A stretch of 64,000 nucleotides of DNA from Amoebidium appalachense. Its lineage: Eukaryota > Protista > Ichthyosporea. The position numbers were made by a program, and so were the translations under genes. The stretch lies in the NCBI GenBank assembly GCA_963693365.1, contig CAVNZM010000008.1:9732293-9796292 (forward strand), in the 5' to 3' direction. The notes beneath the pieces were generated by a model. The model was given only the letters and a program-made list of their open reading frames with translations, had not been told where the DNA came from and ran no database searches. Position 1 is the first letter of the stretch. Each line of letters starts with the position of its first letter. This document shows positions 28,180 through 56,475 of this stretch, piece after piece.

Positions 28180-28400
28180 CACCAACCTACCCAAGTTACC
28201 ACCAACCTACCAACAGTAATCGCGATTTCGATTAGTAGAATTAGACCCAAACATCGATTTCACTTATAAATAGTAGGTTGGGTAGGTTCAGTGGGTTGTT
28301 TTGGGGTTGAGTCGAGCTGGGGCAAAAACAAACGAACACCAACGATGTGTGTTTGGGGGGGCCCCTCCGAGAACCTACCCAACCTACCGAAGTTAAAAAA
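28180..28400. repeat. Iteron-like block A (CAACCTACC direct, GTAGGTT inverted) around an AT-rich core
   Basis: CAACCTACC at ~28183, ~28203, ~28380; GTAGGTT at ~28273, ~28282. Confidence 0.6.
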
Positions 28401-28756
28401 CCCCAACAACCAATGAAATACGCCCGTTAAACCAAGAAACCAATCGGATGGCTTTGTTAAAAACGTTTGCGCAAAACCCAAGCTACCACCAAGTGGCCGA
28501 AGTTACTGAAAGGAAGCTGGCGATCACTTATGCGAAAGTATCTTCGAGAACGAAACTCGATAAGCACGCGATGTCTTTGACACTGCCCCCACTACCACCG
28601 AGTTATCCCCGAAGCAGATTTGCAGTCCTCGGCACCATAGGCGATCGCATTCACCCTCGTACTCTTGACCTCCCCCAAAATGGCAGTGACGGCCATTCCA
28701 AAGTCTCGTTGTGTGGGTCTTCTGGACTTGTAGGTTGTGTTTCTCTCCCACCACAA

Positions 28757-30760
28757 CTATTTATATGCCTGTATCTGTTTGAAATCAATGGTATATGCAT
28801 GTGCCCTGTTGCTGGATCCATGGCTTTGTCCAATAACTATTTGGCTGGGATTGACGAGTTTCCGGGGTCCCAGAACCTTGGTCAACATTGAACCCAGCCT
28901 GTTGACACTGACAACTCTCCGGCCATCGTAACCGTTGGCATCTGCCCATTGACGCATATGTTCTGCCAACCCCTGCGTTGTAGCATGGGCCCCATCTCCG
29001 ATGCCAAGGTCAACTGCTGCATCACCAGCATTTGCAACGTCGCGGAGAAACTGGAGCTCCAAGGGCAAGCTCTTCTCCATTAGCTCTCGCCGGAGGCTTG
29101 TGTCGGGAGGGACTTCAAGAGTGGACTTCACGCCTGGTAGATCAACCAAGTAGTGGAAAAGTGCTTGTAGGACATCTGCTCGCTTGTAATACTCGATGAA
29201 TGCACTGTAGTACTCACGCTGCCCTATGCGCATTCCACTAGCCTCAAGGCACATGTAGCGTCGGTCACTCTGCTCAACTCGCACAGCCCAATCCTCGTTG
29301 GTCAAAAAGGCGTAGCGCTCGTAGGTGCGTGTGTGGACACCATCCACTCCCTTCTTCTCCAAGATGGCATCCTCTTGCGTGATGAGCGCTTTCAGTATGT
29401 TGTTGACTTCGTGACAGCCACCAAACGTACATTCATCGACAACCGCCAGAAGCTTGTGCATTAGATGTGCATTAAACTTGCTTGAAAGATGGTCTTTGTT
29501 TTTGATTGAGGCACTGTAATTCTCGCCAATTAAGCGTTGAACTACCTCAAACCACGTATTCTTACCAGCCCCTTGTGCAGACTTCACAAGGATCGCCGTG
29601 CCTGGTTTGGTAGCTGGGTACTGGAAGATATGAGCAGTCCAGCGTAACAGATACCAAAAAGCATCTTCGTTACCGTTTGCTAATATCTCATACGCATGGC
29701 GTACGAACATTTCAGCAGGATGTCCCGAATAGAGCCCATACTTTTCCAACAGCTCGTCAGTCATCAAAACCCCACTGCGATTCGGAAGGATGGGTGGTAC
29801 GATACATCTGGGTCCGGTGTAGTTGAATGCCGAGTCGTACTTGAACCGAAGACCTCGAAAAATGTTAAAAACTCGGCGTTCACCATGTAGATAGGCTTCC
29901 TTGACGAGGTTTGTTTTGGGGCTGGGTGATTCTGGATCAAAGACAGCCAAAACATAAGTTGGGATCTCGCCATTCATGAAGTCGACCCCCGTGTACCTTT
30001 TCTCCGTGTCCCGGTCAATATACTCCACACTAAACCGTTGAATCGAGTTTCGCATATCGTCCTTCGATAAAGTTCTGAGTTCATAGACCTGCCTCTCAGG
30101 GGACCATTGCTTCAGGATGTAGAGGCTTGTTCCGTTAACATATGCAGCCCATTTGCTCAGATAGGCGACCAGACCACTACGCCCCCAATCCGAACCAATG
30201 ATGCGTGGTAGAAACGGCATGCGGTCGGGGGGCTCGCTGTCCTCTCTTTCCAACTCGTCAAAGATGGATCGCTCGGGTGTAAAGTCCATCATGGTTGTGT
30301 CACATGTCGGAGAGGACTTGGCTTTAGTGGGTTGTGTCTCTTTGCCGTAGATGGACGTGAAGGCGCCGGCGGTGTTCCAACGCATCACACCCCCAGAGTT
30401 CCAATCACGAATGGGGTTGACGATAACACGGTTGGCCTTCGAAAATCTTTCGGACGCCCAGGCCGTCATGGCTGCTCGGTCAGGTCCAGGGGGCTGATGC
30501 CTTGCATTGCACTCCAAATGGGCAGTTTTGGTCCGCTTTGTCAAGCATGTGCGGATTTCACCATATGAGGTTCCAAATGTTGTTTGAATTGACTTGAAAA
30601 GATCGTCGTGGTCAAAAGGCTCGCCATCCACACGCATTTCTCGTTCACCAGTAGGGGCATAGACAGCAAGGTACCAATCCTGACAGCGCCGTCTCAGACT
30701 TGTTCCTTCCACAGCCTGCGGGGGAGGCTCGGCGCCTTCACAGCATACTGTTGGTTCCAT
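28757..30760 (-). CDS. Superfamily 3 helicase (D5/NrS-1-like, DUF5906 type) with C-terminal winged-helix-like domain
   Basis: Walker A SAQGAGKNT, Walker B LAVVDE, LKALIT, EKKGVD, motif C FLTN, arginine finger SDRRY. Confidence 0.9.
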   Translation of the reverse strand: MEPTVCCEGAEPPPQAVEGTSLRRRCQDWYLAVYAPTGEREMRVDGEPFDHDDLFKSIQTTFGTSYGEIRTCLTKRTKTAHLECNARHQPPGPDRAAMTAWASERFSKANRVIVNPIRDWNSGGVMRWNTAGAFTSIYGKETQPTKAKSSPTCDTTMMDFTPERSIFDELEREDSEPPDRMPFLPRIIGSDWGRSGLVAYLSKWAAYVNGTSLYILKQWSPERQVYELRTLSKDDMRNSIQRFSVEYIDRDTEKRYTGVDFMNGEIPTYVLAVFDPESPSPKTNLVKEAYLHGERRVFNIFRGLRFKYDSAFNYTGPRCIVPPILPNRSGVLMTDELLEKYGLYSGHPAEMFVRHAYEILANGNEDAFWYLLRWTAHIFQYPATKPGTAILVKSAQGAGKNTWFEVVQRLIGENYSASIKNKDHLSSKFNAHLMHKLLAVVDECTFGGCHEVNNILKALITQEDAILEKKGVDGVHTRTYERYAFLTNEDWAVRVEQSDRRYMCLEASGMRIGQREYYSAFIEYYKRADVLQALFHYLVDLPGVKSTLEVPPDTSLRRELMEKSLPLELQFLRDVANAGDAAVDLGIGDGAHATTQGLAEHMRQWADANGYDGRRVVSVNRLGSMLTKVLGPRKLVNPSQIVIGQSHGSSNRAHAYTIDFKQIQAYK

Positions 30761-30805
30761 TATCTATAGGATGAGAAAAAAAAAAAATCGGCAGGCAGTT
30801 GTAAG

Positions 30806-31045
30806 TGAACCACTTGAACCACCTGAACCACTGAACCAGGGGGTAAATCACCCCCTCCAGAAATATACTCGAGGTTGGTGTTTGTGTCTGTTCTCTGCTG
30901 GATTACAAAAACAGTGGTTCAGAGTGGTTCAAGTGGTTCACTCTATTAGAATTGGGTCAAAATGTCAAGTTTTAATATAAGAAATCGGAAAACCGCGAAC
31001 CACTGCGAACCACTGACCGGCAGTATGAAAAGATGTAGTGGTTCA
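30806..31045. repeat. Iteron-like block B (GAACCAC direct, GTGGTTC inverted) upstream of the helicase
   Basis: TGAACCA x4 at 30806-30838, GTGGTTCA x3 at 30914-30940, GAACCAC x2 at ~30997-31013, with an AT-rich spacer. Confidence 0.75.
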
Positions 31046-31203
31046 GCCCCTCTTTTTGTTATTATCAGTTACAATGATCAGCAAGTGTGGATCCGACCAA
31101 GAGAGAGTAGTAGTACAGACTGGCACCTTTTGGATGTGTTGCTTCCTTTTATACCTTTGAGGTGGGGTGTGAAAGTTGAGATTTTTTCTTGTGGCCTACA
31201 GTG

Positions 31204-31347
31204 ATGGCCACCTACAACGAGGCGTTCGTCAGAGACAAATTGGCACGGATCGAGGCGAACCCCACATCGGAAAGAACAATGGCGTACCATTTCAACAAAA
31301 GCAAGGTCTTGGACTTTGATGCAAATTGTCTGGTCGATGATCAATAA
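31204..31347 (+). pseudogene. Internally deleted nuclease paralog (47 aa)
   Basis: MATYNEAFVRDKLARIE matches the N-termini of the 27413 and 31416 genes. Confidence 0.55.
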
Positions 31348-31415
31348 ATGACCCCACCGAAGGGGCGGGGGGGGGGGCACGTGAGGCACGCGTATTTTTC
31401 TGCGCACTGTACAGG

Positions 31416-31772
31416 ATGTCTGCGGTAGGCTACGACGAGGCGTTCGTACGCGAGCGACTGGCCGAGCTCGAGGACGGGGTGTGCGGGGTGCCCACTCGGG
31501 CCGGCCGGATTGACGTGCTGACGAGCACGCAGGTCATCGAGGTGCAGCGTGTGTCGCAGTGGAAGACGGCGATCGGAAACGTGCTCGCATACAGCCACTA
31601 CTACCCCGACCGCCAACCGAGGATCCACCTGTTCGACTATGCGCCGGCAGACGTGTACAGGATTGCCGTGCAAACCATCACGTCGCTCAACATCACGCTT
31701 ACAACCGAAGAGGACACGTTGCAGCTGATTTGGGGGGACGACGCGGGCAAAGACGTAAAAGACGAAAAATAA
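31416..31772 (+). CDS. Stand-alone PD-(D/E)XK-like nuclease domain (catalytic K replaced by Q)
   Basis: GRIDVLTSTQVIEVQRVSQWKTAIGNVLAY; paralog of 27413..28080. Confidence 0.75.
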   Translation: MSAVGYDEAFVRERLAELEDGVCGVPTRAGRIDVLTSTQVIEVQRVSQWKTAIGNVLAYSHYYPDRQPRIHLFDYAPADVYRIAVQTITSLNITLTTEEDTLQLIWGDDAGKDVKDEK

Positions 31773-31867
31773 ATAAAGAAGCCATGGGCAAAAAGTCAAA
31801 GCAGCGCAGAGTTGGCCAATAAACGGTCAAAGCTAGCGCGAAGTAGTGAATATTCAACGAAGCTAGC

Positions 31868-33580
<1,713 letters not shown>

Positions 33581-33584
33581 CCCC

Positions 33585-33618
<34 letters not shown>

Positions 33619-33673
33619 TCCTCCCATCTACCCGCACAACCCCAACCCCACATTATATCGTGCACCGGGTAAC

Positions 33674-34066
33674 ATGGACGCTGGCGCACCCCTTCCCCCA
33701 CCCAGCCCATTCGCACCCCCTCCCCCGATCCGCACAAGCCCGCGCAGCACCCCCGGGCCCTCCCCCATCCTACTGGCCATCCTGGCCGGCCTGATCCTCT
33801 ACGTGCTCTGGGACACGTTCAGCCCACGTGTGCGGCGGCGCCTGGCGGTGCTCAAGTGCCAGCGCGCGTGCCCAATGTGTGCCAGCTGCGGCAGCTGCGT
33901 TCCCCGCTGCAAGTGTGCGCACTGCCCCCGCTGCCACGTGTGCGGTGCCAGCCCCGCCCGGTGCGCACAGTGCCCCGCATGCACGCGCTGCCCGCCCGAG
34001 CAGAAGTGCCCGGCGTGCCCCACGTGTGCGCATGCGCCTGCGGTGGTGATCAAGGAGCGCACTTGA
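33674..34066 (+). CDS. TM protein with CxxC-repeat (metal-binding-like) tail
   Basis: ILLAILAGLILYVLW followed by multiple CPxC/CxxC motifs. Confidence 0.7.
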   Translation: MDAGAPLPPPSPFAPPPPIRTSPRSTPGPSPILLAILAGLILYVLWDTFSPRVRRRLAVLKCQRACPMCASCGSCVPRCKCAHCPRCHVCGASPARCAQCPACTRCPPEQKCPACPTCAHAPAVVIKERT

Positions 34067-34102
34067 AGGGTTGGGTGAGCAGAGATTTTTGTGGCATAGA
34101 GT

Positions 34103-34363
34103 ATGGCGTACCGATGGGAGTACAAGCTGAAGGAGGAGCCCGGCAAGGCACCCGTGGTGCAGGCAACTATTGTGCCGACCGAGGCCACCACCCGGCGGAC
34201 GCAGATGGAGCAACGAGTATATGCACAAGAGCTTGCGGAAAAGGGCTATATAGATCTGCCCGATGAGTTGGCGGAGAAGTGTGGATTCAAGAAGTGGGTG
34301 CCCAAGAATCAACGACAGACAGCAATTGTACTGCAGAAGATGATGGAGCCTGAGGATGCATAG
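34103..34363 (+). CDS. Small hypothetical protein
   Basis: 86-aa ATG ORF with viral-type codon usage. Confidence 0.55.
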   Translation: MAYRWEYKLKEEPGKAPVVQATIVPTEATTRRTQMEQRVYAQELAEKGYIDLPDELAEKCGFKKWVPKNQRQTAIVLQKMMEPEDA

Positions 34364-34568
34364 AGACCTACACAAGCCAAAGGATGAATGGACTCACACC
34401 ACAAACATGGAAAATGTAAATGACGAGAGAATCTCCACAAACATGGAAAATGTAAATGACGAGAGAATCTGTTGGGATGTTTAATTTTGATGAGCTGGAG
34501 TCTATCTCCCCCCCCCCCTCCCCCTCCCCTACACCGTTCAATGAAAACTTGGTAGCATGTGTATCATT

Positions 34569-34880
<312 letters not shown>

Positions 34881-35297
34881 CAATGTACGTGCCAGTGTGC
34901 TCGTACACAGATTGAAAAGGAGACTTGGGGTATATTAAATGGAGTCTCTCCCGCTACCACGGGCAAATACATTCAATAGTCATTACGGAAACTTGGTACT
35001 GTTACCGGGCAAATACAATATACATGAAAATTTGGATAAGATTGAAGCAGATCACATTCGAATAAACATTACAGAAAACTTGGTATGAAAACTTTGTACC
35101 ACGTCTTTCCTCCACCACACCCATCACAAACCCTAAGTAAGATGTGAATGTGGGGCCTACCCGCCGCCACCACCACAACTACGTTTCCCCCACCGCACCC
35201 ACCACAAACCCTAAGTAAGATGTGAATGTGGGGCCTACCCGCCGCCACCACCACAACTACGTTTCCCCCACCGCACCCACCACAAACCATGTGTGGT

Positions 35298-35639
35298 CTA
35301 CCCACTCAAAAGCTCCTCCTCGAACTGCTCAAGCTCCTCCTCGAACTGCTCGATGTCAGCCTTGTACTTCTCTCTCAGCTTTTTCCACTGTGCATGGGAC
35401 ACCTGTGGGTTGATAGTTGGGTGTAAGTAGTAGTCCAGCCAGGTGATTTGTTTATGCAAGGCTCAGACATCACTGTATGCCATTACCTCAAACACACCCA
35501 CGCACCCACCAATACACCACCATGGCACACACCCACAGGAAACGAACTCCTACGTGTGGACCAGGTCAAGAAAAACTCTGCAAGGACTCAAAAAACCGTT
35601 TTTACGAACCCCTACATGTAATTGTGAATGCTAGGGCAT

Positions 35640-35697
<58 letters not shown>

Positions 35698-35741
35698 TGT
35701 TTTTTTGTTTGTTGTTTTTTTTGGTTTGTTTTTTTTGGTTT

Positions 35742-35781
<40 letters not shown>

Positions 35782-38322
35782 GGGGGGGGGGGGTACCTCG
35801 AAAACGAGTTCCCTGTCAGTGTAGCCACACGTGCATGCCGGGGGGGGCTTCTTGCCAGCGACCACAAGCCAGTTGACCGTGGCAAAATTTACCGCCTCGG
35901 CCAAGCTGCTACCAGCAGCATACCCAAAGTGGTATGCTCCAGGCAAGGTGCAGATGACCTCACCGGCGTGCTGAACCGTGCGCTGCACGGGGATGCCCTT
36001 CTTCATCAAATAACGGGGGTGGATGAACACAGACTGCCCCACCCAAATGTTAGTCATATGAAAACCCGGGTGGTCGTTTTTGTAAGTGCTTTTTTGGTTC
36101 TTGTTCTTCACGTCTGTGTCTACCACTTGTTCTTCACGTCTGTGTCTACCACTTGTTCTTCACGTCTGTATCTACCACTCCCTCTCTCCCTCTTCTTGTT
36201 CGTCCTCTGTTACTGTGTGTGTGTGGTCGTTTTTTTTTTATTGTTTTTTTTTTATTGTTTTTTTTTTTTTTTTTTTTTTTTTGGTGGGGGGGCCTACCTT
36301 ATGCTGTGTGACTTTCTTACAGATACCGGCCCCCCGAAAGCTCAAGTCTCTCGTGGATATCCTCGAGGATAGACGTAACCTGTTCCTCGTACTCTGCACT
36401 GATCACGAACCAGATTTTCTCTCCTGGCCCACGGACCATGATGTTGACACTCCCAAGTAGAAGGTCTTCTGTGTGGAGCACAATCGGACCCCCAGTCGTG
36501 ACACTGCAAAGAGGCATGGGATTAGTTGGGGCTAAAACAGTAATTACTTCCGACTAGATGTGGCCCAATACATTCCGAAAAGACCGACCCATACACACAC
36601 CCAGGATGGTTCTGTGAACATAAGGGGCGTTCTGCAAGCCTGCCTTTTTCCTTTGTTTAATTATTTGTTGTTTTTTTTTTGGGGGGGGGGGGGGCATACT
36701 TATAGAGCATCGGTGTTGAGATGCCCACACGATCTTTGAATTCTCTTGATACTATTGAGTCAAGCGTCTCCAAGCTGAACATGTAGTCGATTTCTTTCTT
36801 CACCACCTGTCCCTCCTGTTAGTGCCTTCATGTTCACCATTCAACAACACACAGCATGCCTACATATACCCACCACAGTGCATCAACACAACATACACTC
36901 TCCGCTGCACACCCACGCACGCACGCATGCCTACACAACATACACCCCACGCACGCACGCATCCCTACACAACATACACTCTCCGCACAAACACACGCAC
37001 GCACGCATCCCTACACAACATACACTCTCCGCACAAACACACGCACGCACGCATCCCTACACAACATACACTCTCCGCACAAACACACGCACGCACGCAT
37101 CCCTACACAACATACACTCTCCGCACAAACACACGCACGCACGCATCCCTACACAACATACACTCTCCGCACAAACACACGCACGCACGCATCCCTATCC
37201 CCCCCCCCCCCCACAACATACACTCTCCGCACAAACACACGCACGCACGCATCCCTACACAACATCCACTCTCCGCACAAACACACGCACGCACGCATCC
37301 CTACACAACATACACTCTCCGCACAAACACACGCACGCACGCATCCCTACACAACATACACTCTCCGCACAAACACACGCACGCACGCATCCCTACACAC
37401 ACGCACACATGCCTACGCAACATACACTCTCCGCACAAACACACGCACGCACGCATGCACAACATACACTCTCTGCACAAACACACGCACGCACACATGC
37501 ACAACATACACTCTCCGCACAAACACACGCACGCACGCATGCACAACATACACTCTCTGCACAAACACACGCACGCACACATGCACAACATACACTCTCC
37601 GCACAAACACACGCACGCACGCATGCACAACATACACTCTCTGCACAAACACACGCACGCACACATGCACAACATACACTCTCCGCACAAACACACGCAC
37701 GCACACATGCACAACATCACTCTCCGCAAAAACACACACAACATACAAATCTTCGCCGCACACATACGTACCTCACTGGGTGTATGGGTGTTTTTAAGAG
37801 GCTTCAGATCTGTTCCGTAAAGGAACATTGATTTTTCACCATCCGATAGGGAGTCCAACAACCTCCAAAACTCCTCCTCCCCCACCGGATCCCCCTGCCC
37901 AATCGTGTTAGCCCCTGTTCATGGTAACCACATCCTAGTGGTTGCAAATACGCACCTCTGGAATTTGCCCTATGATGTCCTCCCTATAAACGAGGAAGAC
38001 ATCCCTGATGGTGGTAGCCTCCACCCAAATCCGGGTGTAGGATTTTCTCACTCGTGTGGCCTGAGCAGCCTTTTTCAGCCCCTGCACTACCGGCTCGGGA
38101 GGCACGAACTTGACGGCACCAGCTGCCCGAAACTCGTGTTCTTTTTCGATTGACAAAACTATCTTCTCCAAGGAGAGCTTTTCTAGATGCATTTGGCGGA
38201 GATGTGCTACGGGTACCTCGTTGAACCCCGCCACCTCCCCAGTCTCAGTGTCTTGTTGTTGCCCCCTGTCCACCTCTCCCGCTTCTTGCTCTGTGTGTGC
38301 GTGCGTGTGTGTGCGTGTGTGT

Positions 38323-38358
<36 letters not shown>

Positions 38359-38448
38359 GTGGCCGAGTGCATACATGCGTGCAGGTGCCTTCCCGTGGTG
38401 TGTGTGTGTGTGTGTGTGTGTCATGCATGCGTGCAGGTGCCTTCCCGT

Positions 38449-38480
<32 letters not shown>

Positions 38481-38506
38481 ATGCATGCGTGCAGGTGCCT
38501 TCCCGT

Positions 38507-38538
<32 letters not shown>

Positions 38539-38564
38539 ATGCATGCGTGCAGGTGCCTTCCCGT

Positions 38565-38598
<34 letters not shown>

Positions 38599-38624
38599 AT
38601 GCATGCGTGCAGGTGCCTTCCCGT

Positions 38625-38663
<39 letters not shown>

Positions 38664-38689
38664 ATGCATGCGTGCAGGTGCCTTCCCGT

Positions 38690-38721
<32 letters not shown>

Positions 38722-38807
38722 ATGCATGCGTGCAGGTGCCTTCCCGTGGTGTGTGTGTGTGTGTGTGTGTATGTGTGTGTCATGCATGCGTGCAGGTGCC
38801 TTCCCGT

Positions 38808-38839
<32 letters not shown>

Positions 38840-38865
38840 ATGCATGCGTGCAGGTGCCTTCCCGT

Positions 38866-38897
<32 letters not shown>

Positions 38898-38923
38898 ATG
38901 CATGCGTGCAGGTGCCTTCCCGT

Positions 38924-38955
<32 letters not shown>

Positions 38956-38981
38956 ATGCATGCGTGCAGGTGCCTTCCCGT

Positions 38982-39015
<34 letters not shown>

Positions 39016-39183
39016 GGGGGAGGGAGGGGGGGGGGGGGGGTTTAGCCGAGTGCATACATGCGTGCAGGTGCCTTTCCGTGGTGTGTGTGTGTGTGTGTGT
39101 GTGTCATGCATGCGTGCAGGTGCCTCCCGTGGGTGTGTGTGTGTGTGTGTGTGTGTCATGCATGCGTGCAGGTGCCTTCCCGT

Positions 39184-39218
<35 letters not shown>

Positions 39219-39298
39219 ATGCATGCGTGCAGGTGCCTTCCCGTGGTGTGTGTGTGTGTGTGTGTGTGTGTCATGCATGCGTGCAGGTGCCTTCCCGT

Positions 39299-39336
<38 letters not shown>

Positions 39337-39362
39337 ATGCATGCGTGCAGGTGCCTTCCCGT

Positions 39363-39395
<33 letters not shown>

Positions 39396-39613
39396 GGGGG
39401 GAGCCAGGGGGGGGGGGGGTTTAGCCGAGTGCATACATGCGTGCAGGTGCCTTTCCGTGGTGTGTGTGTGTGTGTGTGTGTGTCATGCATGCGTGCAGGT
39501 GCCTCCCGTGGTGTGTGTGTGTGTGTGTGTGTGTCATGCATGCGTGCAGGTGCCTTCCCGTGGTGTGTGTGTGTGTGTGTGTGTGTCATGCATGCGTGCA
39601 GGTGCCTTCCCGT

Positions 39614-39646
<33 letters not shown>

Positions 39647-39863
39647 GGGGGGAGCCAGGGGGGGGGGGGTTTAGCCGAGTGCATACATGCGTGCAGGTGC
39701 CTTTCCGTGGTGTGTGTGTGTGTGTGTGTGTGTCATGCATGCGTGCAGGTGCCTCCCGTGGTGTGTGTGTGTGTGTGTGTGTGTCATGCATGCGTGCAGG
39801 TGCCTTCCCGTGGTGTGTGTGTGTGTGTGTGTGTGTCATGCATGCGTGCAGGTGCCTTCCCGT

Positions 39864-39908
<45 letters not shown>

Positions 39909-41415
39909 GGGAGGGGGGGGGGGGGGGGGATGGGGGGTGGGATAGGCCTAGGTGCATGCATGCGTGCAGGTGCCTTCCCGTGGTGTGTGTGTGTGGGGGG
40001 GGGGGGGGGGGGATAAGCCGAGGTGCATGCATGCGTGCAGGTGCCTTCCCGTGGTGTGTGTGTGGGGGGGGGGGGGGGGGGGGGGGGGGATAAGCCGAGG
40101 TGCATGCATGCGTGCAGGTGCCTTCCCGTGGTGTGTGTGTGTGGGGGGGGGGGGGGGGGATAAGCCGAGGTGCATGCATGCGTGCAGGTGTGTGATGGCT
40201 TCAATGTGTGGGTGATGGTGGTGTAGGTGGTTGGGTAATTGGGTGGTTGGTTGTGTGTGTGTGGGGGGGGGGGGGGGGTTACCTGGCTGGAAATCCCACT
40301 CTCCCCCTTCTCCCTCTCCTCTCCACTCTCCCCCTTCTCCCTCTCCAACCCCCTCTTCCCCTTCTCCCTCTCCTCTCCACTCTCCCCCTTCTCCCTCTCC
40401 TCTCCGCTCTTCCCCTTCTCCCTCTCCTCTCCACTCTCCCCCTTCTCCCTCTCCTCTCCGCTCTCCCCCTTCTCCCTCTCCAACCCACTCTCCCCCTTCT
40501 CCCTCTCCCTCTCCACTCTCCCCCTTCTCCCTCTCCAACCCCCTCTTCCCCTTCTCCCTCTCCTCTCCACTCTCCCCCTTCTCCCTCTCCTCTCCACTCT
40601 CCCCCTTCTCCCTCTCCTCTCCACTCTCCCCCTTCACCCTCTCCAACCCCCTCTTCCCCTTCTCCCTCTCCTCTCCACTCTCCCCCTTCTCCCTCTCCAA
40701 CCCCCTCTTCCCCTTCTCCCTCTCCTCTCCACTCTCCCCCTTCTCCCTCTCCAACCCCCTCTTCCCCCTCTCCTTCATCATCACTCTTGTGGACCTCCAC
40801 TTTTGCCCGCTTTTTCGGGTGGTTAATCGTCGGGGCCGGCAGTTTGACAGCAGGTCTGTCTGGAGGGCTGCGTGCAGCCCCATCCCACCACACTTCCCAT
40901 CCGAGCCTTTTGAATATCCAAAAAATTTGTTTCTCCCCCGGCAAAGAACCCGATACTTCAGGTATGTGACTTAAGTCGTGGCTGCCACTGAAAGTGGAAA
41001 GTCGACTGAGCATCGCCGCCAAACCATCCGAGTTTCCATGATAGCTGCCAAGATCGTAAACTCTCCATTGAGGGCCACCCCATTTCAGAATCCAAGCAAT
41101 AGTCGTATTGATACCCTTGTTGTTTTCGAGTTGTTGCAACTGATATTTGTTCCTGTGATACAGACGCCCGTCGTTGAGTTCAAACAAGAAGACCGAAACA
41201 TGATCTGAATCGTTGGGTTTCACAGCGTGTAATATTGGTGCCGTCTTCTTTCTTTGATAACGATTAAAACCCTGTGGTGTGAATAGCTCTTCACCCGTAA
41301 AAATGATTGTAGGATCAGTATGTTTCGAGAATATGAATGTTGGTGGGTTTGCTTGTATGCTACTCTGGAACGCATCATTGATGAGCGCCAGAAACTGTTC
41401 GTTGGTAGCAGCCAT
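35298..41415 (-). CDS. JmjN+JmjC histone lysine demethylase (KDM4-like), 7 exons: 41415-40283, 38290-37956, 37894-37772, 36806-36700, 36503-36298, 36033-35797, 35402-35298
   Basis: JmjN EVPV...AGAVKFVPP; EFW...YGTD; GISTPMLY; LHTED...SVN...GEKIWF; C...QHK; VQHAGEVICTLPGAYHFG...AEAVNFA...W; CTC. All introns are GT-AG and several have CTAAY branch sites. The model needs single-base corrections at ~40505 and ~36330. Confidence 0.9.
36870..37730. repeat. Intronic 43/39-bp minisatellite
   Basis: ACAACATACACTCTCCGCACAAACACACGCACGCACGCATCCCTAC-type units. Confidence 0.95.
38360..40190. repeat. Intronic minisatellite: constant CATGCATGCGTGCAGGTGCCTTCCCGTG plus variable (GT)n or poly-G
   Basis: About 30 units read directly. 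Confidence 0.95.
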
Positions 41416-41508
41416 GTTGTTTGTGTGTATTTTGTGTTTGATTGTGAGCTTTTTCTCGTCTGCGAGCGCGCTTGCTATGTGCTTGTGCCACTGCTGCGCT
41501 CGCGCTCG

Positions 41509-41567
<59 letters not shown>

Positions 41568-42454
41568 CTGCCTGTGTGCTTGTGCCACTGCTGCGCTCGC
41601 GTCTAGTCTACAATGTGTGTGTTTAAAATGTGTCGGGAAAAACGTGAAGGAAATTCTACGTGTCTGTATTCAAAGAAGAAAAGGCAGCTAAAAGCGCGAC
41701 GTGCACAGACTAACAGGTCTGTGTTCTCGTTCTTTGTTTTGACTCTGGCCTGCTTGCAACGTAAACAGTTTCAGCGCCGGGGTGCAAGTGACACGAACTG
41801 AAGTGGCGCGCTTCAATCATGTCATTGAAATGATAGCTGACCAATCAATAGTTTGTCCTGTTTGCCCAATTGCAAAATGGAATGTGTATTGGGCAATACT
41901 CGGCGCGCGTACGTGATAACTGGCCAATCAGTAAGATCGTTTCGCCGACCCGGCTGCCCCTCTGCGTAGCCAAATTTGTGGCTAATTAAGTGTTATAACT
42001 TAGCAATAAAAATAATATACCCAAAATGATTAATTTATATTTATTATGCAAATATTTGCTTAGAAATTTGTGTGGAAAGCGTTTTCTGAAACCAGTCTAC
42101 GAAAAGCCTTTAGGATTTGCAACATCGTATCAAATTGGCTAATCAGATCATGCCATGGCCGACACGCGTTTGCCCTTAGTACCAGTGCCCGATAGCCCCT
42201 ATCCAACAATCACTGAATGATTCGCGTGCATTTGGGAATATTCGCGCCCGTGATAACTGGCTTATCAACTCGGCTGCTAATTATAGTATTACCGCCCTTG
42301 CTCCCCAGGACCCTTCCGCGAAGCAATATATATCGCTAATATGTACCAATAAATACCAAAAGCACCAAAATAAATTGATTATACACTTTCTTAATACAAA
42401 AATTATGTGTGGAAAGCGTTTTGTGAATCCGGCATCTGAAGAGCCGATGGGGCA

Positions 42455-42775
42455 CTTGGCCAATCAGATTATGACATGCGCTGCCTGGAGTGCCAGTGCC
42501 CTATCACGTGGATCCAACTGTTATACACCAATCAGAGCACGGAGAAGTCCGCGAATGAGATGGCCAATCAGATTATGAAATTCGCTGCCTGGAGTGCCAG
42601 TGCCCTATCACTGACGTGGATCCAACTGTTATACACCAATCAGAGCACAAAGAAGTCCGCGAATGAGATGACCATTGGACAATCAGATTATGAAATTCGC
42701 TGCCTGGAGTGCCAGTGCCCGATCACTGACGTGGATCCAACAATCAGAGCACCAAGAAGTCCGCGAATGAGATGC
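42455..42775. promoter_or_regulatory. Three ~110-bp tandem units, each with (C)CAATCAG boxes, between divergent genes
   Basis: Repeated CCAATCAGA...GTGGATCCAAC...CCAATCAGAGC. The regulatory role is inferred. Confidence 0.5.
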
Positions 42776-42785
42776 TATTGGATAT

Positions 42786-42842
<57 letters not shown>

Positions 42843-43513
42843 GTGTGTGCGTGTGTGTGTGCGTGCGTGTGTGAGCTGTGTGTGCAAAAAGAGGGGAAAT
42901 AAGCGCTGCATACAAAAGCCCCGAAGTGGAGTATACGACAAACCCAGCGCCCAAGCTTCATACCCAAAGTGGATACAATAAAAAGACAGTTGCTGTGTGT
43001 GCAAAGCTGTGTGTGCAAAAAGAGGGGAAATAAGCGCTGCATACAAAAGCCCCGAAGTGGAGTATACGACAAACCCAGCGCCAGCGCTTCATACCCAAAG
43101 TGGATACAATATTTTACATCTCATGCACTACAAGGCTTGGCAAAGCTTGGTCCTCGGTCCTCAGTCCTCAATGGATCCCCTTATAAGAACATTTTGCTTC
43201 TAAAAATCATCGGTGATGGCCTTTTTGATCAGTTCACAGCCGCGTTTGCACATGAATGAATTTTGCTTTATTTTGGCTTTGTGTAAGAGGTTTTTTTCAG
43301 TTCACGGTGTGTTTGCACGCGATAGAATTTTCGTTTGCTTTGCTTTTTGTAAATAATTCAGTGACGACTTTTTTTGTTCGTATCTCTATTTCAGTGACGA
43401 CTTTTTTTTGTTCGTATCTTTTTTTTTTTGGGAAGAAGTGTCTGACTCTGACCTCCACGTTTTTCTAGGTAGTCTTTTCTATTTCACATTCCCCTCTTTT
43501 GAATTTGTGAACC

Positions 43514-44864
43514 ATGGATAGCGCCTCGCAAATGGTCGGGCAAAGCACAAACCCCGCCGACCCCACCGACCCCAAAAAGGGCACCCCCACCGACCCCACC
43601 GACCCCACCGACAAAAAGGGCACCCCCGCCGACCCCGCCGACCCCACCGACAAAAAGGGCACCCCCGCCGACCCCGCTGACCCCACCGACAAAAAGGGCA
43701 CCCCCGCCGACCCCGCCGACCCCACCGACAAAAAGGGCACCCCCGCCGACCCCGCTGACCCCACCGACAAAAAGGGCACCCCCGCCGACCCCGCCGACCC
43801 CACCGACAAAAAGGGCACCCCCGCCGACCCCACCGACAAGGACGTTTCTTCGGCTCCCATCGACCATAGACTTATGGAAGCACTACAGGCAGAAATGACA
43901 TTGCAACTTAGTCAGGCTTTAGCCTCACTTGGCGTGACATCTGTGCCTGCTACACCCACCACCGCCGCCACCACCACCTTACTCGAATACAAAGAGAAAT
44001 ATGAAAATGCGGAGAAAGCGTTGCAAACGGTGAAAGATGAAAACAAACGGTTGACAGAAACGATTAGAGAGGTCAAAGAAGCAGCAGTCAAAGATAAATA
44101 TACTGCTTCTGCAACGAACAACCTGTTGGCTGAGAGGGTTCAGGAACTCGAAGCTCGGCTCATTAGTGAGACGGCCGAAAAGTTATCCTTGCAGGATGAG
44201 GTGGCCTGGCAGAAGGAGGAAAATGCAAAAGTCGAGTCAGAGATGGCAGACCTGCAGAAAACCTATCGAAAGACAGTCAAGGAGAGCACACAAAAACTGC
44301 TTTTGGGCCTGAAACGCTCCCCCCATACATCCGACGTGGAGATACTCCCCCCCCCCCCCTCTAGCGCTACCCAATCCGGTCGTTCATCCGTTGCCCGCCC
44401 CCACCAACGTCCTATTCAGAGTGCCCCCGCTCGCATAGACCCCATGATGTCCAATCCCCACACACAAACATCCGACGTCGAGGAGATACTCCCCCCCCCC
44501 CCCCTCTAGCGCTACCCAATCCGGTCGTTCATCCGTTGCCCGCCCCCACCAACGTCCTATTCAGAGTGCCCCCGCTCGCACAGACCCCATGATGTCCAGT
44601 CCCCACACAAAAACCGGGCTCGGGCTGAAGAGGGGGGCGGATTCAGGTGGGAATGTGCCCAAACGGTTCCGGGGCGGAGAGAGAGAAAGGCCCAAGGAAT
44701 CAATAGATAAGATTCTCGACGAAGCAGCCAGAGAGGAGGATGAGAAGAAGCGGAAAGAAAGCAGTCGTGCAGGGCAGGGCAAGAAAGAAAGACCATCGGG
44801 CAAGAAAACGGTGCTCCGCACACGGAGGCCTGTGACTTCCAGTGACGATGACCATTCGGTCTGA
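43514..44864 (+). CDS. Repeat/coiled-coil protein (PTDKKGTPADPAD repeats, basic-acidic tail); +1 frameshift in C-run at ~44491-44504
   Basis: ORF 43514..44509 continues into 44589..44864. An internal ~140-bp duplication differs by one C. Confidence 0.7.
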
Positions 44865-44869
44865 AAGAC

Positions 44870-44917
44870 TTTGTGTGTGTTTTTTTTGTTTTGTTTTTTT
44901 TTTGTTTTTTTTTTTGT

Positions 44918-44952
<35 letters not shown>

Positions 44953-45048
44953 CTTCGACTATGTTACATGGCAGAGCCTAAGACGTTGGAGTGATGCCGT
45001 GTGAAATGTGGAAAAATATAGACTTGGCTATGAAACACGGAAAGCATT

Positions 45049-45087
<39 letters not shown>

Positions 45088-45282
45088 GGGGGGGGGGGGG
45101 GGGCTTCGACTATGTTACATGGCAGAGCCTAGGACGTGGGAGTGATGCCGTGTGAAATCTGGAAAAATATAGACTTGAAAGCATTGTTTTTTTTTTTTGG
45201 TTTTTGTTTTTTTTTTTTTTTTTTTTTTTTTTTGGGGGGGGGGGGGGGGGGGCTTCGACTATGTTACATGGCAGAGCCTACG
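44870..45282. repeat. 3 copies of poly-T/poly-G + GGCTTCGACTATGTTACATGGCAGAGCCTA
   Basis: Direct reading. Confidence 0.9.
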
Positions 45283-45411
45283 GTTTCTGTATAATGTATA
45301 GGTAGAAGTTTTGGGATTTCTCTTTACAATCGGTTGGAGATGGATTTTATAAAAAGAAATCCAGTGTTATCTGAATCTGTGCTTACCCCACATGCTTGTA
45401 TACACAGACGT

Positions 45412-46456
45412 GATGCACGTCTAAGTCCTTCACACACTCAAAGAGTCCCACCACCCACATGCACTAGCACTATTTCTCTCTTCCTGCTCTGTATCCCCCC
45501 TCCCCCCTTCATGCATGCACGTCTAAGTCCTTCAATCCCCATGCCATGCACACACTCAAAGAGTCCCCCACCACCCACATGCACTAGCACCATTTCTCTC
45601 TTCCTGCTCTATATCCCCCCCCCCCCCCCCCCCCCCCCCCTCCCCTTCCCCCTTCATGCATGCACGTCTAAGTCCTTCAATCCCATGCCATGCACACACT
45701 CAAAGAGTCCCCCACCACCCACATGCACTAGCACCATTTCTCTCTTCCTGCTCTATATCCCCCCCCCCCCCCCCCCCCTCCCCTCCCCCCTTCATGCATG
45801 CACGTCTAAGTCCTTCAATCCCCATGCCATGCACACACTCAAAGAGTCCCCCACCACCCACATGCACTAGCACCATTTCTCTCTTCCTGCTCTATATCCC
45901 CCCCCCCCCCCCCCCTCCCCCTTCCCCCTTCATGCATGCACGTCTAAGTCCTTCAATCCCCATGCCATGCACACACTCAAAGAGTCCCCCACCACCCACA
46001 TGCACTAGCACCATTTCTCTCTTCCTGCTCTATATCCCCCCCCCCCCCCCCCTCCTCCCTCCCCCCCCCCCTTCATGCATGCACGTCTAAGTCCTTCAAT
46101 CCCCATGCCATGCACACATTCAAAGAGTCCCCCACCACCCACATGCACTAGCACCATTTCTCTCTTCCTGCTCTATATCCCCCCCCCCTCCCCTCCCCCC
46201 TTCATGCATGCACGTCTAAGTCCTTCAATCCCCATGCCATGCATGCATTCAAAGAGTCCCCCACCACCCACATGCACTAGCACCATTTCTCTCTTCCTGC
46301 TCTATATCCCCCCCCCCCCCTCCCCTCCCCCCTTCATGCATGCACGTCTAAGTCCTTCAATCCCCATGCCATGCATGCATTCAAAGAGTCCCCCACCACC
46401 CACATGCACTAGCACCATTTCTCTCTTCCTGCTCTGTATTCCCTGCATGCACTAGC
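45412..46456. repeat. ~125-bp tandem repeat with variable poly-C, ~8 copies
   Basis: ATGCACGTCTAAGTCCTTCAATCCC...CACATGCACTAGCACCATTTCTCTCTTCCTGCTC units. Confidence 0.95.
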
Positions 46457-46591
46457 AGTGTTACTCGTTCATCCCAGCCCGGGCCAATGGTATGCAAAGT
46501 AACTGTATCGGCCGTGCAGCGCTGTCGTTGTGTGTTTATTTTCGTGTTTTCGGGTCGGTGCACGTGTGGTGTGGAGTACCATGTTTATTGC

Positions 46592-46972
46592 TTTTTGTAT
46601 CAGCGCTGGCGTGTACTCCACTTTTGTATCAGCGCTGGCGCTGTGATTGTCGTGTACTCCACTTTTGTATCAGCGCTGGCGCTGTGATTGTCGTGTACTC
46701 CACTTTTGTATCAGCGCTGGCGCTGTGATTGTCGTGTACTCCACTTTTGTATCAGCGCTGGCGGTACTCCACTTTTGTATCAGCGATGGCGTGTACTCCA
46801 CTTTTGTATCAGCGCTGGCGCTGTGATTGTCGTGTACTCCACTTTTGTATCAGCGCTGGCGCTGTGATTGTCGTGTACTCCACTTTTGTATCAGCGCTGG
46901 CGCTGTGATTGTCGTGTACTCCACTTTTGTATCAGCGCTGGCGCTGTGATTGTCGTGTACTCCACTTTTGTA
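46592..46972. repeat. 41-bp tandem repeat
   Basis: TTTTGTATCAGCGCTGGCGCTGTGATTGTCGTGTACTCCAC, with shortened variants. Confidence 0.95.
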
Positions 46973-46991
46973 GCGCGGTGTGTTAATTGAA

Positions 46992-47433
46992 TTAAAAGTC
47001 CGAGTGACTTGTTTGTCTCAGAGTGGTGTCGTACTCCGCAGCACCCGTCTTCTTATTGAAATAGTATATGACTGCATACACCAATGGTGTAACCAATAAA
47101 CATGTGAGGACAATAGCAGCGCTGACGTACACCAGATACATTTTGTTCACTTTCTCTCTAGCATTCGGTTCGGACTTCATTAAATTGTACCAGTGTATAT
47201 TTGCAACGACACTGCATATAGATATCACATAAAGAATGCCTGTGGTGACCGTGCTGTCGAACATGTACGTGTACCTCACAAAACTTTCAGTATCCGACGT
47301 GTTACACCCCAAAAGTGACCTCTCTGAGATCTTGCCTGTGGTACAAACTCTTGATGCCGTGTTGCTCTTGTGTTTTACCAGTACCCCTCTCTCCAGATGC
47401 CGAATTTAGATTGGAATTCGTGAATACACCCAT
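46992..47433 (-). CDS. Two-TM membrane protein; probable +1 frameshift at ~47385
   Basis: Two hydrophobic helices in ORF 46992..47312; ATG 47433 joins on removing one G. Confidence 0.5.
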
Positions 47434-47568
47434 GTGATTGGTCAGTGGTTTGGCACCAAGAGATTGATTGATATGCCATCAACCAGTCAACAAAAAGTAC
47501 TCGCTTTTACTTTTTGTCTCGCTTCACCCCAATCCAAGAACAGTGCACACCAAAACAAAACACTAGAA

Positions 47569-48052
47569 ATGGGAGACGCACTTTTGCGCCCCGATTCGGT
47601 TGACCCCGAACGATGCCCTGCATTTGCACCCTCAAAAAAAGCCCAGTGCAAAAACAAAAAAGAAAACATGCCCACACCACAAGGACGGCTTCAAGCCCTG
47701 GGTATGCTTTGCCCCTGCCACCGGTGTCCTCCTCTACAGCGACAACACCATCAACATCCTCCACCCCCACAAGGCCGGGGACTATGCTCATGCAAACCTC
47801 CTGCTGGACGACCTCCTGGCCGCCTTTACAGTCGCAGAAATGCAGCGCCCTCGCACCGAGCGCACCGGGGTACCCGCGCTGACTGTGTCCACTCCGGATC
47901 CACCCATGGGTGCACCACAGCCACCGGTTGCAGCTGCAGCGGTGGGTGTGGGCAGGGAAAATGGGTACTGCCAGGGCAAAACCAAGGCTGGCAATCCCTG
48001 CAAAAACAGGGTGAAATCTACGACCCATTGCCATAAGCACAAGCCCAAATAA
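47569..48052 (+). CDS. Protein with two C-x(9)-C-x(n)-C-x2-H zinc-binding motifs; frameshift in A-run at ~47655-47667
   Basis: RCPAFAPSKKAQCKNKK-TCPHH and YCQGKTKAGNPCKNRVKSTTHCHKH; stop codon in AATAAA. Confidence 0.6.
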
Positions 48053-48741
48053 AAAAACCACCCACACACCCCCACGTGCCAACATACACTATCCTCCCCG
48101 TGAGTAGCATGCCAGTCCCCCCAGCCCCCCTGCCCCCCAGCCCCCCAGCCCCCCTGCCCCCCTGCCCCCCTGCCCCCCTGCCCCCCTGCCTGCCGGAACC
48201 AGGCCCCCCAGTGGTGGCATTCCAACACGTGCATGCTAGAAGATCGTGCTACATGAACAAATGGTCTTAACTCAGCCATACATGGGGGATAGCCATGGTT
48301 CCCCCACTCTCCCCAGCCTCCTGTGCACGTGTGCCCTCCCCTGCCCCCCTGCCCCCCCTGCTGCCGGAACCACGGCCCCCAGTGGTGGCAGTGAGTGTCC
48401 CCCCTGCCTCCCCTGCACGTGTGCCCCCCCTGCCTCCCCTGCACGTGTGCCCCCCCTGCCTCCCCTGCCTCCCGGAACCACGCCCCGGCGCAGTGGCAGC
48501 TATTTTTAGATATAGAGATTCCATGGCCACATGGCCAGATGGCCAGATCATTTTGCTCACCGTTTTATCCCGTTTTATCCACCTTTTTCCACACACTGAA
48601 TTTGACCTGGCCATCTGGCCATCTGGGTAGAGACCGTTTTCTGTTCTGATATTGGAGAACTGTCTGATAGTGATAGCAAATGTCATTCGAAGAACAATCG
48701 GGAAACCCCGTGGTGTGACAACCAATCAGAATGAAGCAATA

Positions 48742-49028
48742 TTGGGATATTCGGGTTGGTTGTAAGGTTTTCCGGGTCGGGCCGAAGGCCCTAACGGGCC
48801 GCAGGCCCGTCTATTGGGCCATAGGCCCTAGGCCGCGAGGCCTGCTAACCCCCCCGCGGGCCGGGCCGGGCCGGGGGTGGCTCGCGGGCCGGGCCGGGCC
48901 CCCCGGTCCCCGGGGCCCCGGGCCCCAGGCCTCGCGGCCTAGGGCCTATGGCCCAATAGACGGGCCTGCGGCCCGTTAGGGCCTTCGGCCCGACCCGGAA
49001 AACCTTACAACCAACCCGAATATCCCAA
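48742..49028. repeat. Perfect 103-bp inverted repeat with 81-nt GC-rich loop (candidate viral hairpin terminus)
   Basis: 48742-48844 is the exact reverse complement of 48926-49028; loop 48845-48925. Confidence 0.97.
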
Positions 49029-50144
49029 GTGGGTTAGTGATGGTAACTTTAGTTTTTTATTTTAACCATACCATTGGTGGATTGTTTTGATCATTTTTTA
49101 CAAACCAAAGCTTGCCCGATGCCAGGGCTAAGCCGCTAGGTAGAGGCAAATTAGTACAGGTTAAGAAAGCATGCTACACGACAGATAAAGATATAAATTA
49201 CATACACCCACCTACTGTAAAAAGTTTCTTTTACGGCTTTCATTCTCTTCTCAAACAATATACAACCAGATACCAGACACATATTATACATCAATTTTAT
49301 AATGGCTTATAAACATACTGATTGGATTAAGATCACAGCATTATAAAGCTGTTCCGGTACACGGTTACGTATACCCTTCAGCTGTCGTGCTGCATATAAA
49401 ACAGATCTGCTGCGTCTTGTGCCTCAGTCGAAATACATCAAAACTTTGTAAGATCCCGCGCACCTTTATTTTTTTTTCTTTTTTTTTTTGCGATTCCTGT
49501 GTGCTTATACACATCGTCCGTGTATTAGAGGTTTGGTTTTCAGAAGAACTTATAATTTACATTTCTGTTTCTAAGATATGAACTTATTTACATTTCTGTT
49601 TCTAAGAGTTTCATTCGCCCGGAGCCAGGCCTAGACTTGGGTTTTGTTTTGCGCTTTCCATTTTCTGAGTCCTTCTGCCAAAAGCAATCTTCTTTTCACG
49701 GCCACAGAGGTAAGTTTGCCTTATACGAATAACTATTTGGGTATATGTAGCACTTACCGCTGCTTAAGCTGAATTCAATGTGTATATTATTTTGCGTATG
49801 TATACGTAGTAAGTGCAAGTTCGCTGAAGCCAGTCGCCATTGCCCTACATGGTAGAGCATTCAATCTAGCCCGGGACCCGCACCATGATCCCGAAAAACC
49901 TGGAAATTTTTAAACAAAATAATGATTTTCTTATTTTTCTATGTTGCATAGCCATGGATGTAGCTTTCACCAAGTTACCCGTGCCACTCACTCTATCACG
50001 TATATGAAGTATGCACAACTCCAGCTACAAAATATTCCAGTAAAGTTCATAATGTAAGAGACTGCTAAAGTTTAATGAACATTAACGGTTAGCGTCACAC
50101 TTGACCCCAGCAGACCTTTACCATACACCCGTCACCAATACGTC

Positions 50145-56475
<6,331 letters not shown>

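What the first reader, a model, noticed from the sequence alone, without database searches (positions are those of the whole stretch)
48742..49028. Candidate unfolded hairpin telomere of a giant virus preserved at the virus-host junction
Seen: two 103-bp arms that are exact reverse complements, around an 81-nt loop with only 6 A/T and repeated GGGCC/CCGGG pentamers. There is no flanking TSD (left CAATA, right GTGGG). Viral-type ORFs and subterminal repeats run up to the left arm, and AT-richer host DNA with a 5-exon gene begins after the right arm. Known: poxviruses, ASFV and chloroviruses have covalently closed hairpin ends, and poxvirus concatemer junctions are cut by the A22/RuvC resolvase, a homolog of which is encoded here. 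Inference: a linear genome with a closed hairpin end was nicked ~103 nt from the loop, opened and ligated to the chromosome. That would be a direct trace of how these elements integrate. A loop this GC-rich differs from the AT-rich poxvirus hairpins and looks more like a parvoviral ITR.
Basis: partly seen in the sequence, partly recalled or inferred. Interest (0 to 1): 0.9.

Follow-up and report, generated by a model that had tools for sequence, protein, structure and literature searches.

The report
Palindrome beside an endogenous giant virus
A perfect 287-base DNA palindrome lies at the far end of a repeat-rich stretch next to giant-virus genes in a eukaryote's DNA, and it is most likely, though unproven, the virus's hairpin-sealed end that was cut open and joined to host DNA, which would be a rare trace of how such viruses enter genomes.

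Summary
The palindrome is real: two exactly complementary 103-nt arms around an 81-nt, 93% GC loop, single-copy in the window, with no target-site duplication. New here: each arm carries three GGGCC-N3-GGCCC mini-palindromes; the left arm is built into its left flank (an imperfect palindrome is centred on its outer edge, with a second GGCC hairpin 120 bp further left); and the right arm stops one base short of that symmetry axis, as a site-specific nick would leave it. No homologue, second copy, empty site or reads could be obtained. Odds: opened viral hairpin end 0.40, foldback/MITE-type element 0.30, fold-back repair scar 0.22, artefact 0.06.

The parts
48742..48844 (+). Left arm, 103 nt, 64% GC: about 36 nt of unique outer sequence, then three GGGCC-N3-GGCCC mini-palindromes (48779, 48796, 48816; loops GAA, GCA, ATA) and a GGCC-N4-GGCC unit
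   Evidence: folds better than shuffles on its own, z -2.45 and -2.91
48845..48925 (.). Loop, 81 nt, 93% GC, with an 18-nt direct repeat (48855, 48883), a 14-nt perfect palindrome and a G-quadruplex motif on each strand
   Evidence: folding and G4 content are what composition alone gives
48926..49028 (-). Right arm, exact reverse complement of the left arm; ends one base short of the symmetry axis at 48740/48741
48699..48777 (.). Imperfect palindrome centred at 48740/48741, straddling the outer edge of the left arm (16 of 22 matches; 8-bp perfect core); includes a CCAAT-box-like motif at 48722; candidate nick site
   Evidence: 11 of 63,910 window positions reach 16/22; 7 of 2000 shuffles reach the alignment score; weaker as a fold, z about -1.9
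48524..48627 (.). Second, smaller inverted repeat (about 20-bp stem of TGGCCA repeats, 52-nt loop)
   Evidence: (z -4.93, 0 of 200 shuffles)
48100..48500 (+). C-rich short tandem repeats directly left of the inverted-repeat cluster
47567..48052 (+). Last intronless reading frame before the palindrome; small protein with a C-terminal DUF5763-like zinc knuckle; no in-frame ATG before the conserved part
   Evidence: E=0.46; 6 hits; 4 of 6 hits carry DUF5763; P0026, 29% over 145 columns
31801..48741 (.). Gene-poor, repeat-rich 17-kb zone between the viral core and the palindrome (candidate subterminal region, or host/transposon DNA)
35300..41415 (-). Multi-exon JmjC (KDM4/KDM5-like) gene ending shortly after the JmjC domain; exon structure read by eye
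1..31800 (.). Dense intronless giant-virus-type gene block (MIP, MSV199, T5orf172, DUF5906 helicase, weak NUDIX and A22/RuvC-like matches)
17790..18465 (+). A22/RuvC-like resolvase gene, interrupted near its start by a 98-bp insertion (17808-17905)
49029..56475 (+). AT-rich upstream region and an intron-rich host-type gene with five candidate exons

Best explanation
The palindrome is most likely the hairpin-closed end of a linear giant-virus genome that was probably nicked at a fixed site, opened into a double-stranded end and then likely joined to host DNA by end-joining repair. Shown: the two exact arms, the GC-rich loop, the GGCC iteron cluster, the absence of a TSD, the imperfect palindrome centred on the left edge, and the end of the repeat-rich zone at this point. 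Inferred: (1) the 31.8-48.7 kb zone belongs to the virus; (2) in the free genome the left and right arms paired as the terminal duplex, capped by the 81-nt single-stranded loop; (3) a nick on the bottom strand at the apex of the imperfect palindrome (48740/48741) primed synthesis through the hairpin, as terminal resolution does in AAV, leaving arm-loop-arm with a free end exactly there; (4) that end, one base trimmed, was ligated to a break upstream of a host gene without microhomology or TSD. The nicking enzyme is unknown; A22 is not needed by this route.
For: Left-right asymmetry: 16/22 imperfect palindrome centred on the left edge (11 of 63,910 positions reach this; two are this site), against 11/22 at the right edge, a level about 5% of positions reach. 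A second GGCC-rich hairpin lies 120-220 bp left (z -4.93) and the 200-nt windows richest in GGCC are all here. Complex tandem arrays: 6,769 of 16,941 bp (40%) left of the palindrome, 310 of 14,972 (2.1%) right, 676 of 31,800 (2.1%) in the core; vaccinia has tandem repeats between hairpin and first ORF (PMC8956199, passages). The multi-exon JmjC-only gene fits the KDM4-like genes found in 39% of Amoebidium giant-virus insertions, which keep their introns (PMC11244446, passages). The core's non-coding motif at 8341-8420 recurs at 31786-31862. The last 1.7 kb before the arm has no microsatellite or long homopolymer, like the core and unlike the right side, and encodes a zinc-knuckle protein with one near-full-length relative. 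No TSD, whereas a real insertion in this window keeps a 5-bp TSD. Hairpin ends are known in poxviruses, asfarviruses and chloroviruses and a Mamonoviridae relative is described as linear. AAV's nick site lies in a stem-loop (PMC2944168, passages).
Against: No second copy, other end, empty site or read was seen. CpG o/e is 0.69-0.70 in 31.8-48.7 kb, 0.91 in the core and 0.63-0.66 on the right; microsatellites and poly-C/G runs start at 31.8 kb, so the junction may be 17 kb to the left. Part of the repeat load looks transposon-like: inverted related motifs at 42924-43108 and 46612-46967, and inverted arrays at 33165-33315 and 33403-33559. The loop folds no better than shuffles (z 0.34 and 2.13; 410 of 500 shuffles are as self-complementary) and G4 motifs on both strands arise in 387 of 2000 shuffles. 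No significant sequence link between the arm and the viral core (best 23/36, tied with a low-complexity hit). The iteron motif is generic (21 viral and 89 metagenomic loci). The zinc knuckle also occurs in a fungal protein. Amoebidium and Acanthamoeba insertions are described as incomplete, and Acanthamoeba borders as not matching terminal inverted repeats. The left-edge palindrome test was made after seeing it, and part of the match is a CCAAT-box-like motif common in the window.
Confidence: 0.4

Rival explanations
1. A short non-autonomous foldback/MITE-type transposon (two 103-bp TIRs with internal repeated binding sites) inserted between an ORF and the promoter of a host gene; it says nothing about viral integration.
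For: Unique outer end plus iterated inner motifs is the usual anatomy of foldback TIRs (recalled). The neighbourhood holds other inverted-array cassettes. Both flanks are AT-rich and carry CCAAT-type motifs (48722 and 49318). Amoebidium insertions collect secondary transposons. A 14-nt match to the loop lies in host-type DNA at 57310.
Against: No TSD at any register, while the 98-bp insertion at 17808 has one. No other copy in 64 kb. The imperfect palindrome and the second GGCC hairpin tie the left arm to its left flank.
Confidence: 0.3
2. A fold-back or template-switch repair scar: DNA broke or stalled in a GC-rich non-coding element (for example an internal origin), the end folded back, copied 103 nt and was joined to other DNA. 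The loop was never a natural telomere.
For: Inverted junctions from template switching have spacers of about 40-80 nt (PMC10766183, passages), close to the 81-nt loop. The loop has no selected fold. An older inverted duplication with a short spacer lies at 33165-33559. Explains the left-right asymmetry as well as the best explanation does.
Against: Gives no reason for the copy to stop one base from the axis of the imperfect palindrome, nor for the break to fall in the one iteron cluster of the window, at the end of the repeat-rich zone.
Confidence: 0.22
3. An assembly or chimeric-read artefact.
For: A 93% GC loop inside a perfect inverted repeat is hard to sequence, and nanopore reads can fold back (recalled); no reads could be examined.
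Against: No N in the window. A read through a hairpin would fold back for kilobases, not 103 nt, and a second chimeric join would be needed (inference). The right edge does not look random with respect to the left-edge palindrome.
Confidence: 0.06

Closest known systems
Hairpin telomeres of poxviruses (vaccinia), ASFV, kaumoebavirus LCC10 and chlorovirus PBCV-1 (PMC8956199, PMC7909422, PMC11814242; passages read)
   Same: Inverted arms around a cap of about 100 nt; tandem repeats between the last ORF and the cap (vaccinia); an A22-like gene in the element.
   Different: Their caps are incompletely base-paired hairpins, 84-93% A+T in the two poxviruses cited; this loop is 93% GC and not self-complementary beyond chance. 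Here the structure is open, embedded in a chromosome, with only 103 bp of second arm.
AAV2 inverted terminal repeat and terminal resolution (PMC2944168; passages read)
   Same: GC-rich stem of similar size with iterated short motifs, and a candidate nick site within a separate stem-loop at the inner end of the stem.
   Different: No T-shaped pair of perfect small palindromes; no Rep/HUH gene among the ORFs scanned; attached to giant-virus-type DNA.
Giant endogenous viral elements of Amoebidium appalachense (PMC11244446; abstract, passages, sections 7 and 15 read)
   Same: Intron-poor gene block with MIP and a D5-type helicase, multi-exon JmjC-only gene, secondary insertions, intron-rich host genes.
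   Different: The paper's main text has 0 occurrences of 'hairpin' or 'inverted repeat' and treats integration as stochastic; no terminal structure is described there.
Phaeovirus EVEs of Ectocarpus (PMC13236599; passages read)
   Same: Integrated giant virus; a palindrome inferred to give covalently closed ends.
   Different: They integrate as circles through a tyrosine recombinase at CC-CC junctions, and their telomere site is internal. No recombinase hit among the ORFs scanned here, and the palindrome is at the apparent edge.
Foldback transposons and MITEs (recalled)
   Same: Long perfect TIRs with inner repeated motifs, short non-coding spacer.
   Different: No TSD and no second copy in the window; left arm overlaps a palindrome shared with the flank.

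Membership tests
Poxvirus/asfarvirus-type hairpin telomere | Terminal cap is an incompletely base-paired hairpin | tested here: not met
   Loop z 0.34 and 2.13; 410 of 500 shuffles as self-complementary
Poxvirus/asfarvirus-type hairpin telomere | Cap occurs in flip and flop forms | not testable with these tools
   One copy only; no genome or reads available
Poxvirus/asfarvirus-type hairpin telomere | Lies at the end of the viral genome, repeated inverted at the other end | tested here: inconclusive
   Repeat-rich zone ends here but composition changes at 31.8 kb; other end outside the window
Poxvirus/asfarvirus-type hairpin telomere | Virus encodes an A22 Holliday-junction resolvase | tested here: inconclusive
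   Sub-threshold Ydc2 and Pox_A22 matches; gene interrupted
   No dominant structure; centroid leaves most of the loop unpaired
AAV/parvovirus ITR | Nick site in a stem-loop next to iterated binding motifs | tested here: inconclusive
   Geometry fits; no nicking shown
AAV/parvovirus ITR | Rep/NS1 HUH endonuclease gene | tested here: inconclusive
   No such Pfam hit in the ORFs scanned; window holds only part of the element
MITE / foldback transposon | Terminal inverted repeats, short, non-coding | tested here: met
MITE / foldback transposon | Target-site duplication | tested here: not met
MITE / foldback transposon | Many dispersed copies | not testable with these tools
   None elsewhere in 64 kb; no whole genome held
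Amoebidium-type giant endogenous viral element (left part of window) | Dense intron-poor genes with giant-virus domains plus multi-exon JmjC-only gene | tested here: met
   compared
Amoebidium-type giant endogenous viral element (left part of window) | Core markers placing it near Mamonoviridae; all-context CG hypermethylation | not testable with these tools
   No capsid, A32 or VLTF3 hit among ORFs scanned; no methylation data
Structured RNA gene | Match to an Rfam family | tested here: not met
   only 24 bits against a cut-off of 80, on the small hairpin

The most novel reading that the evidence does not exclude
Giant viruses of this lineage end in a GC-rich, iteron-bearing hairpin that is opened by a site-specific nick at an adjacent stem-loop, in the manner of parvovirus terminal resolution, and these resolved open ends are what gets ligated into host chromosomes. 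Endogenization would then be an end-on capture of a normal replication intermediate, needing no integrase, and insertion boundaries could be called to the base.
Probability: 0.25. Interest if true: 0.85.

Novelty: new variant of a known kind. Interest (0 to 1): 0.55.

Why it matters
How giant viruses without a known integrase get into protist chromosomes is open; the Amoebidium paper calls the process stochastic. A preserved, opened terminal hairpin at a junction would show that whole linear ends are captured, reveal the genome end of a lineage for which my searches found no terminal structure in print, and give a 100-bp probe to map other insertions and empty sites. If it is a MITE or a repair scar, it is ordinary.

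Tried and rejected
Whole genome not held and no sequencing runs obtained, so copy number, empty site and reads stay open. Exact arm patterns: 0 hits in viral contigs and metagenomes; no blastn match in phages or plasmids; no look-alike among earlier findings. Motif scans: two-unit GGGCC-N3-GGCCC gave 21 viral loci, three-unit gave 89 metagenomic loci; all 89 were examined, most are simple tandem repeats, the longest perfect inverted repeat among them is 31 bp, and the best look-alike (L028, 82% over 66 nt) lies by a bacterial/phage HTH and Gp49 pair. Arrays at contig ends (L002, L011, L012) can be assembly breaks, so I did not count them as support. The small-hairpin motif gave 52 unrelated loci. 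Related viral loci via the helicase: none close. Homologue searches with the zinc-knuckle ORF and a JmjC exon found nothing; Atlas searches were uninformative; 9 of 9 window proteins looked up exactly are absent from the collection. G-quadruplex cap: rejected as evidence (387 of 2000 shuffles). A frameshift in the zinc-knuckle gene near 47660 is suggested by cysteine spacing by eye, but BLASTP of the upstream frame found no alignment. A mitochondrial-telomere (NUMT) origin was considered; the primary paper was not held, so it is untested. DUF5763 as a giant-virus family is recalled; the paper search found nothing. No supplementary files were read; insertion-boundary tables there may bear on where the junction lies.

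Full report
Observation. The arms at 48742-48844 and 48926-49028 are exact reverse complements of 103 nt around an 81-nt loop with 6 A/T. Among non-simple perfect inverted repeats with partners within 600 nt, the next longest arm in the window is 38 nt. There is no other copy in the window and no N. No TSD of 2-12 nt exists at 13 of 15 boundary registers; the two exceptions are 2-nt matches inside the arms.

Anatomy. Each arm has about 36 nt of unique outer sequence and then three GGGCC-N3-GGCCC units and one GGCC-N4-GGCC unit. All 7 matches of the first motif in the window lie inside the palindrome, against 0.31 expected. The arm folds better than shuffles by itself (z -2.45, -2.91), the loop does not (z 0.34, 2.13). 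The loop is no more self-complementary than its composition gives (410 of 500 shuffles reach its score) and its G4 motifs on both strands are matched by 387 of 2000 shuffles. So the cap resembles neither the incompletely paired hairpins described for vaccinia and kaumoebavirus (passages) nor the T-shape of AAV (passages).

The left arm is tied to its left flank. An imperfect palindrome (16 of 22, with an 8-bp perfect core) is centred at 48740/48741. Only 11 of 63,910 positions reach that level, two being this site, and 7 of 2000 shuffles reach the gapped alignment score; the right edge scores 11 of 22, reached by about 5% of positions. The right arm ends one base short of this axis. A second hairpin of TGGCCA repeats lies at 48524-48627 (z -4.93). 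This test was made after seeing the feature, and part of the match is a CCAAT-box-like motif that recurs in the window, so I weight it as moderate evidence. It says that the left arm is native to the left-hand DNA and the right arm is the copy, and that the copy ends at a structured site.

Setting. 1-31.8 kb is a dense intronless gene block with MIP, MSV199, T5orf172 and DUF5906 domains; the helicase's best relative is 58% identical and lies on a 183-kb contig labelled Daphnia sinensis. An A22/RuvC-like frame matches only below cut-off and is interrupted by a 98-bp TG...CA insertion with a 5-bp TSD. A multi-exon JmjC gene of KDM4/KDM5 type lies at about 35.3-41.4 kb. This gene set matches the giant-virus insertions described in Amoebidium, where JmjC-only multi-exon genes occur in 39% of insertions (PMC11244446; abstract, passages, sections 7 and 15). 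An ichthyosporean-like host is therefore my inference, not a result.

Where is the junction? The evidence is split. For 31.8 kb: CpG o/e falls from 0.91 to 0.69-0.70, near the 0.63-0.66 of the right side, and microsatellites plus poly-C/G runs rise from 0.09 to 6.1 per kb. Inverted arrays at 33165-33559 and inverted related motifs at 42924-43108 and 46612-46967 look like transposon cassettes. For 49.0 kb: complex tandem arrays cover 40% of 31.8-48.7 kb (16 arrays) and 2.1% on either side; the JmjC gene is a virus-associated type; the last 1.7 kb has no simple repeats and encodes a zinc-knuckle protein with one near-full-length relative and five knuckle-only hits, four of the six carrying DUF5763 and one named as fungal. 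I put about 0.65 on the zone being part of the viral element.

Relatives. None found. Exact arm patterns gave no hits in viral contigs or metagenomes, nor blastn in phages and plasmids. The iteron motif is generic: 21 viral and 89 metagenomic loci, mostly tandem repeats, none with a long inverted repeat. No genome or reads were available. Earlier AI notes on other genomes report branched or AAV-like caps at giant-virus ends; they are unchecked and only make a non-poxvirus cap less odd.

Mechanism. The most economical account of all features is a closed hairpin end, nicked at the apex of the adjacent imperfect palindrome, copied through to give an open arm-loop-arm end, and ligated to a host break upstream of a gene (0.40). 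Only the sequence geometry is shown; viral ownership of the flank, the closed end, the nick and the ligation are inferred. A foldback/MITE-type element (0.30) explains the arms and the neighbourhood but not the missing TSD or the left-edge palindrome. A fold-back repair scar (0.22) fits the 81-nt spacer (passages of PMC10766183) and the asymmetry but not the stopping point. An artefact (0.06) needs two chimeric joins.

Novelty. Hairpin ends are known in several giant-virus groups, and Ectocarpus insertions use a recombinase route. My searches showed no report, in the listings or the passages read, of an opened terminal hairpin at an endogenous giant-virus junction; the library lacks most subscription papers and I read no supplements. 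I rate it a new variant of a known kind, interest 0.55: easy to test and valuable if true, but resting on one copy.

Noticed in passing
window 17803-17910: 98-bp TG...CA insertion with short terminal inverted repeats and a 5-bp TSD (solo-LTR- or MITE-like) interrupting the A22/RuvC-like gene near its start.
   Followed up: partly
window 30804-30942: Inverted repeat of iterated GAACCAC motifs (19-bp perfect core, 101-nt spacer; further copies to 31038) directly upstream of the DUF5906 helicase gene; origin-like.
   Followed up: no
window 42874-46972: Roughly 4-kb cassette bounded by inverted, tandemly repeated related motifs (131-bp and 41-bp units), holding a repeat-rich coiled-coil ORF at 43514-44509; transposon-like.
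   Followed up: partly
window 31868-33559: Array of 50-bp units whose last copies are inverted (85% over 157 bp, short spacer): an older fold-back-like structure.
   Followed up: partly
window 49031-49037: A 7-nt match to the TTAGGG telomere repeat two bases after the right arm, in the polarity that telomerase would add; its complement opens the loop at 48845. Post hoc and weak.
   Followed up: no
window 57310-57323: 14-nt exact match to the loop's GGGCC repeat in host-type intergenic DNA, near a CCAAT-type motif.
   Followed up: no
window 8300-8990 and 31786-31862: Non-coding viral region with 43-bp repeats and CCAAT-type motifs; an 80-bp piece recurs at the edge of the dense gene block.
   Followed up: partly
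window 50146-56475: Host-type gene with a signal-peptide-like start and exons that by eye recall a phospholipase D-like domain; no Pfam hit for three single exons.
   Followed up: partly
P0001 (183,011-bp contig labelled Daphnia sinensis): Closest relative of the viral helicase (58%); the contig may be a related virus or insertion from an epibiont and its ends are worth inspecting.
   Followed up: no
L011:1-140 and L012:1400-1853; L002:1501-1644: Tandem GGGCC-N3-GGCCC arrays at both ends of one 59.9-kb viral contig and at one end of a 68-kb contig; may be true ends or assembly breaks.
   Followed up: partly
window 12513-14022 and 20759-22270; 9195-10127 and 23081-24691: Two pairs of paralogous viral ORFs detectable at DNA level (67-70% identity).
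   Followed up: no
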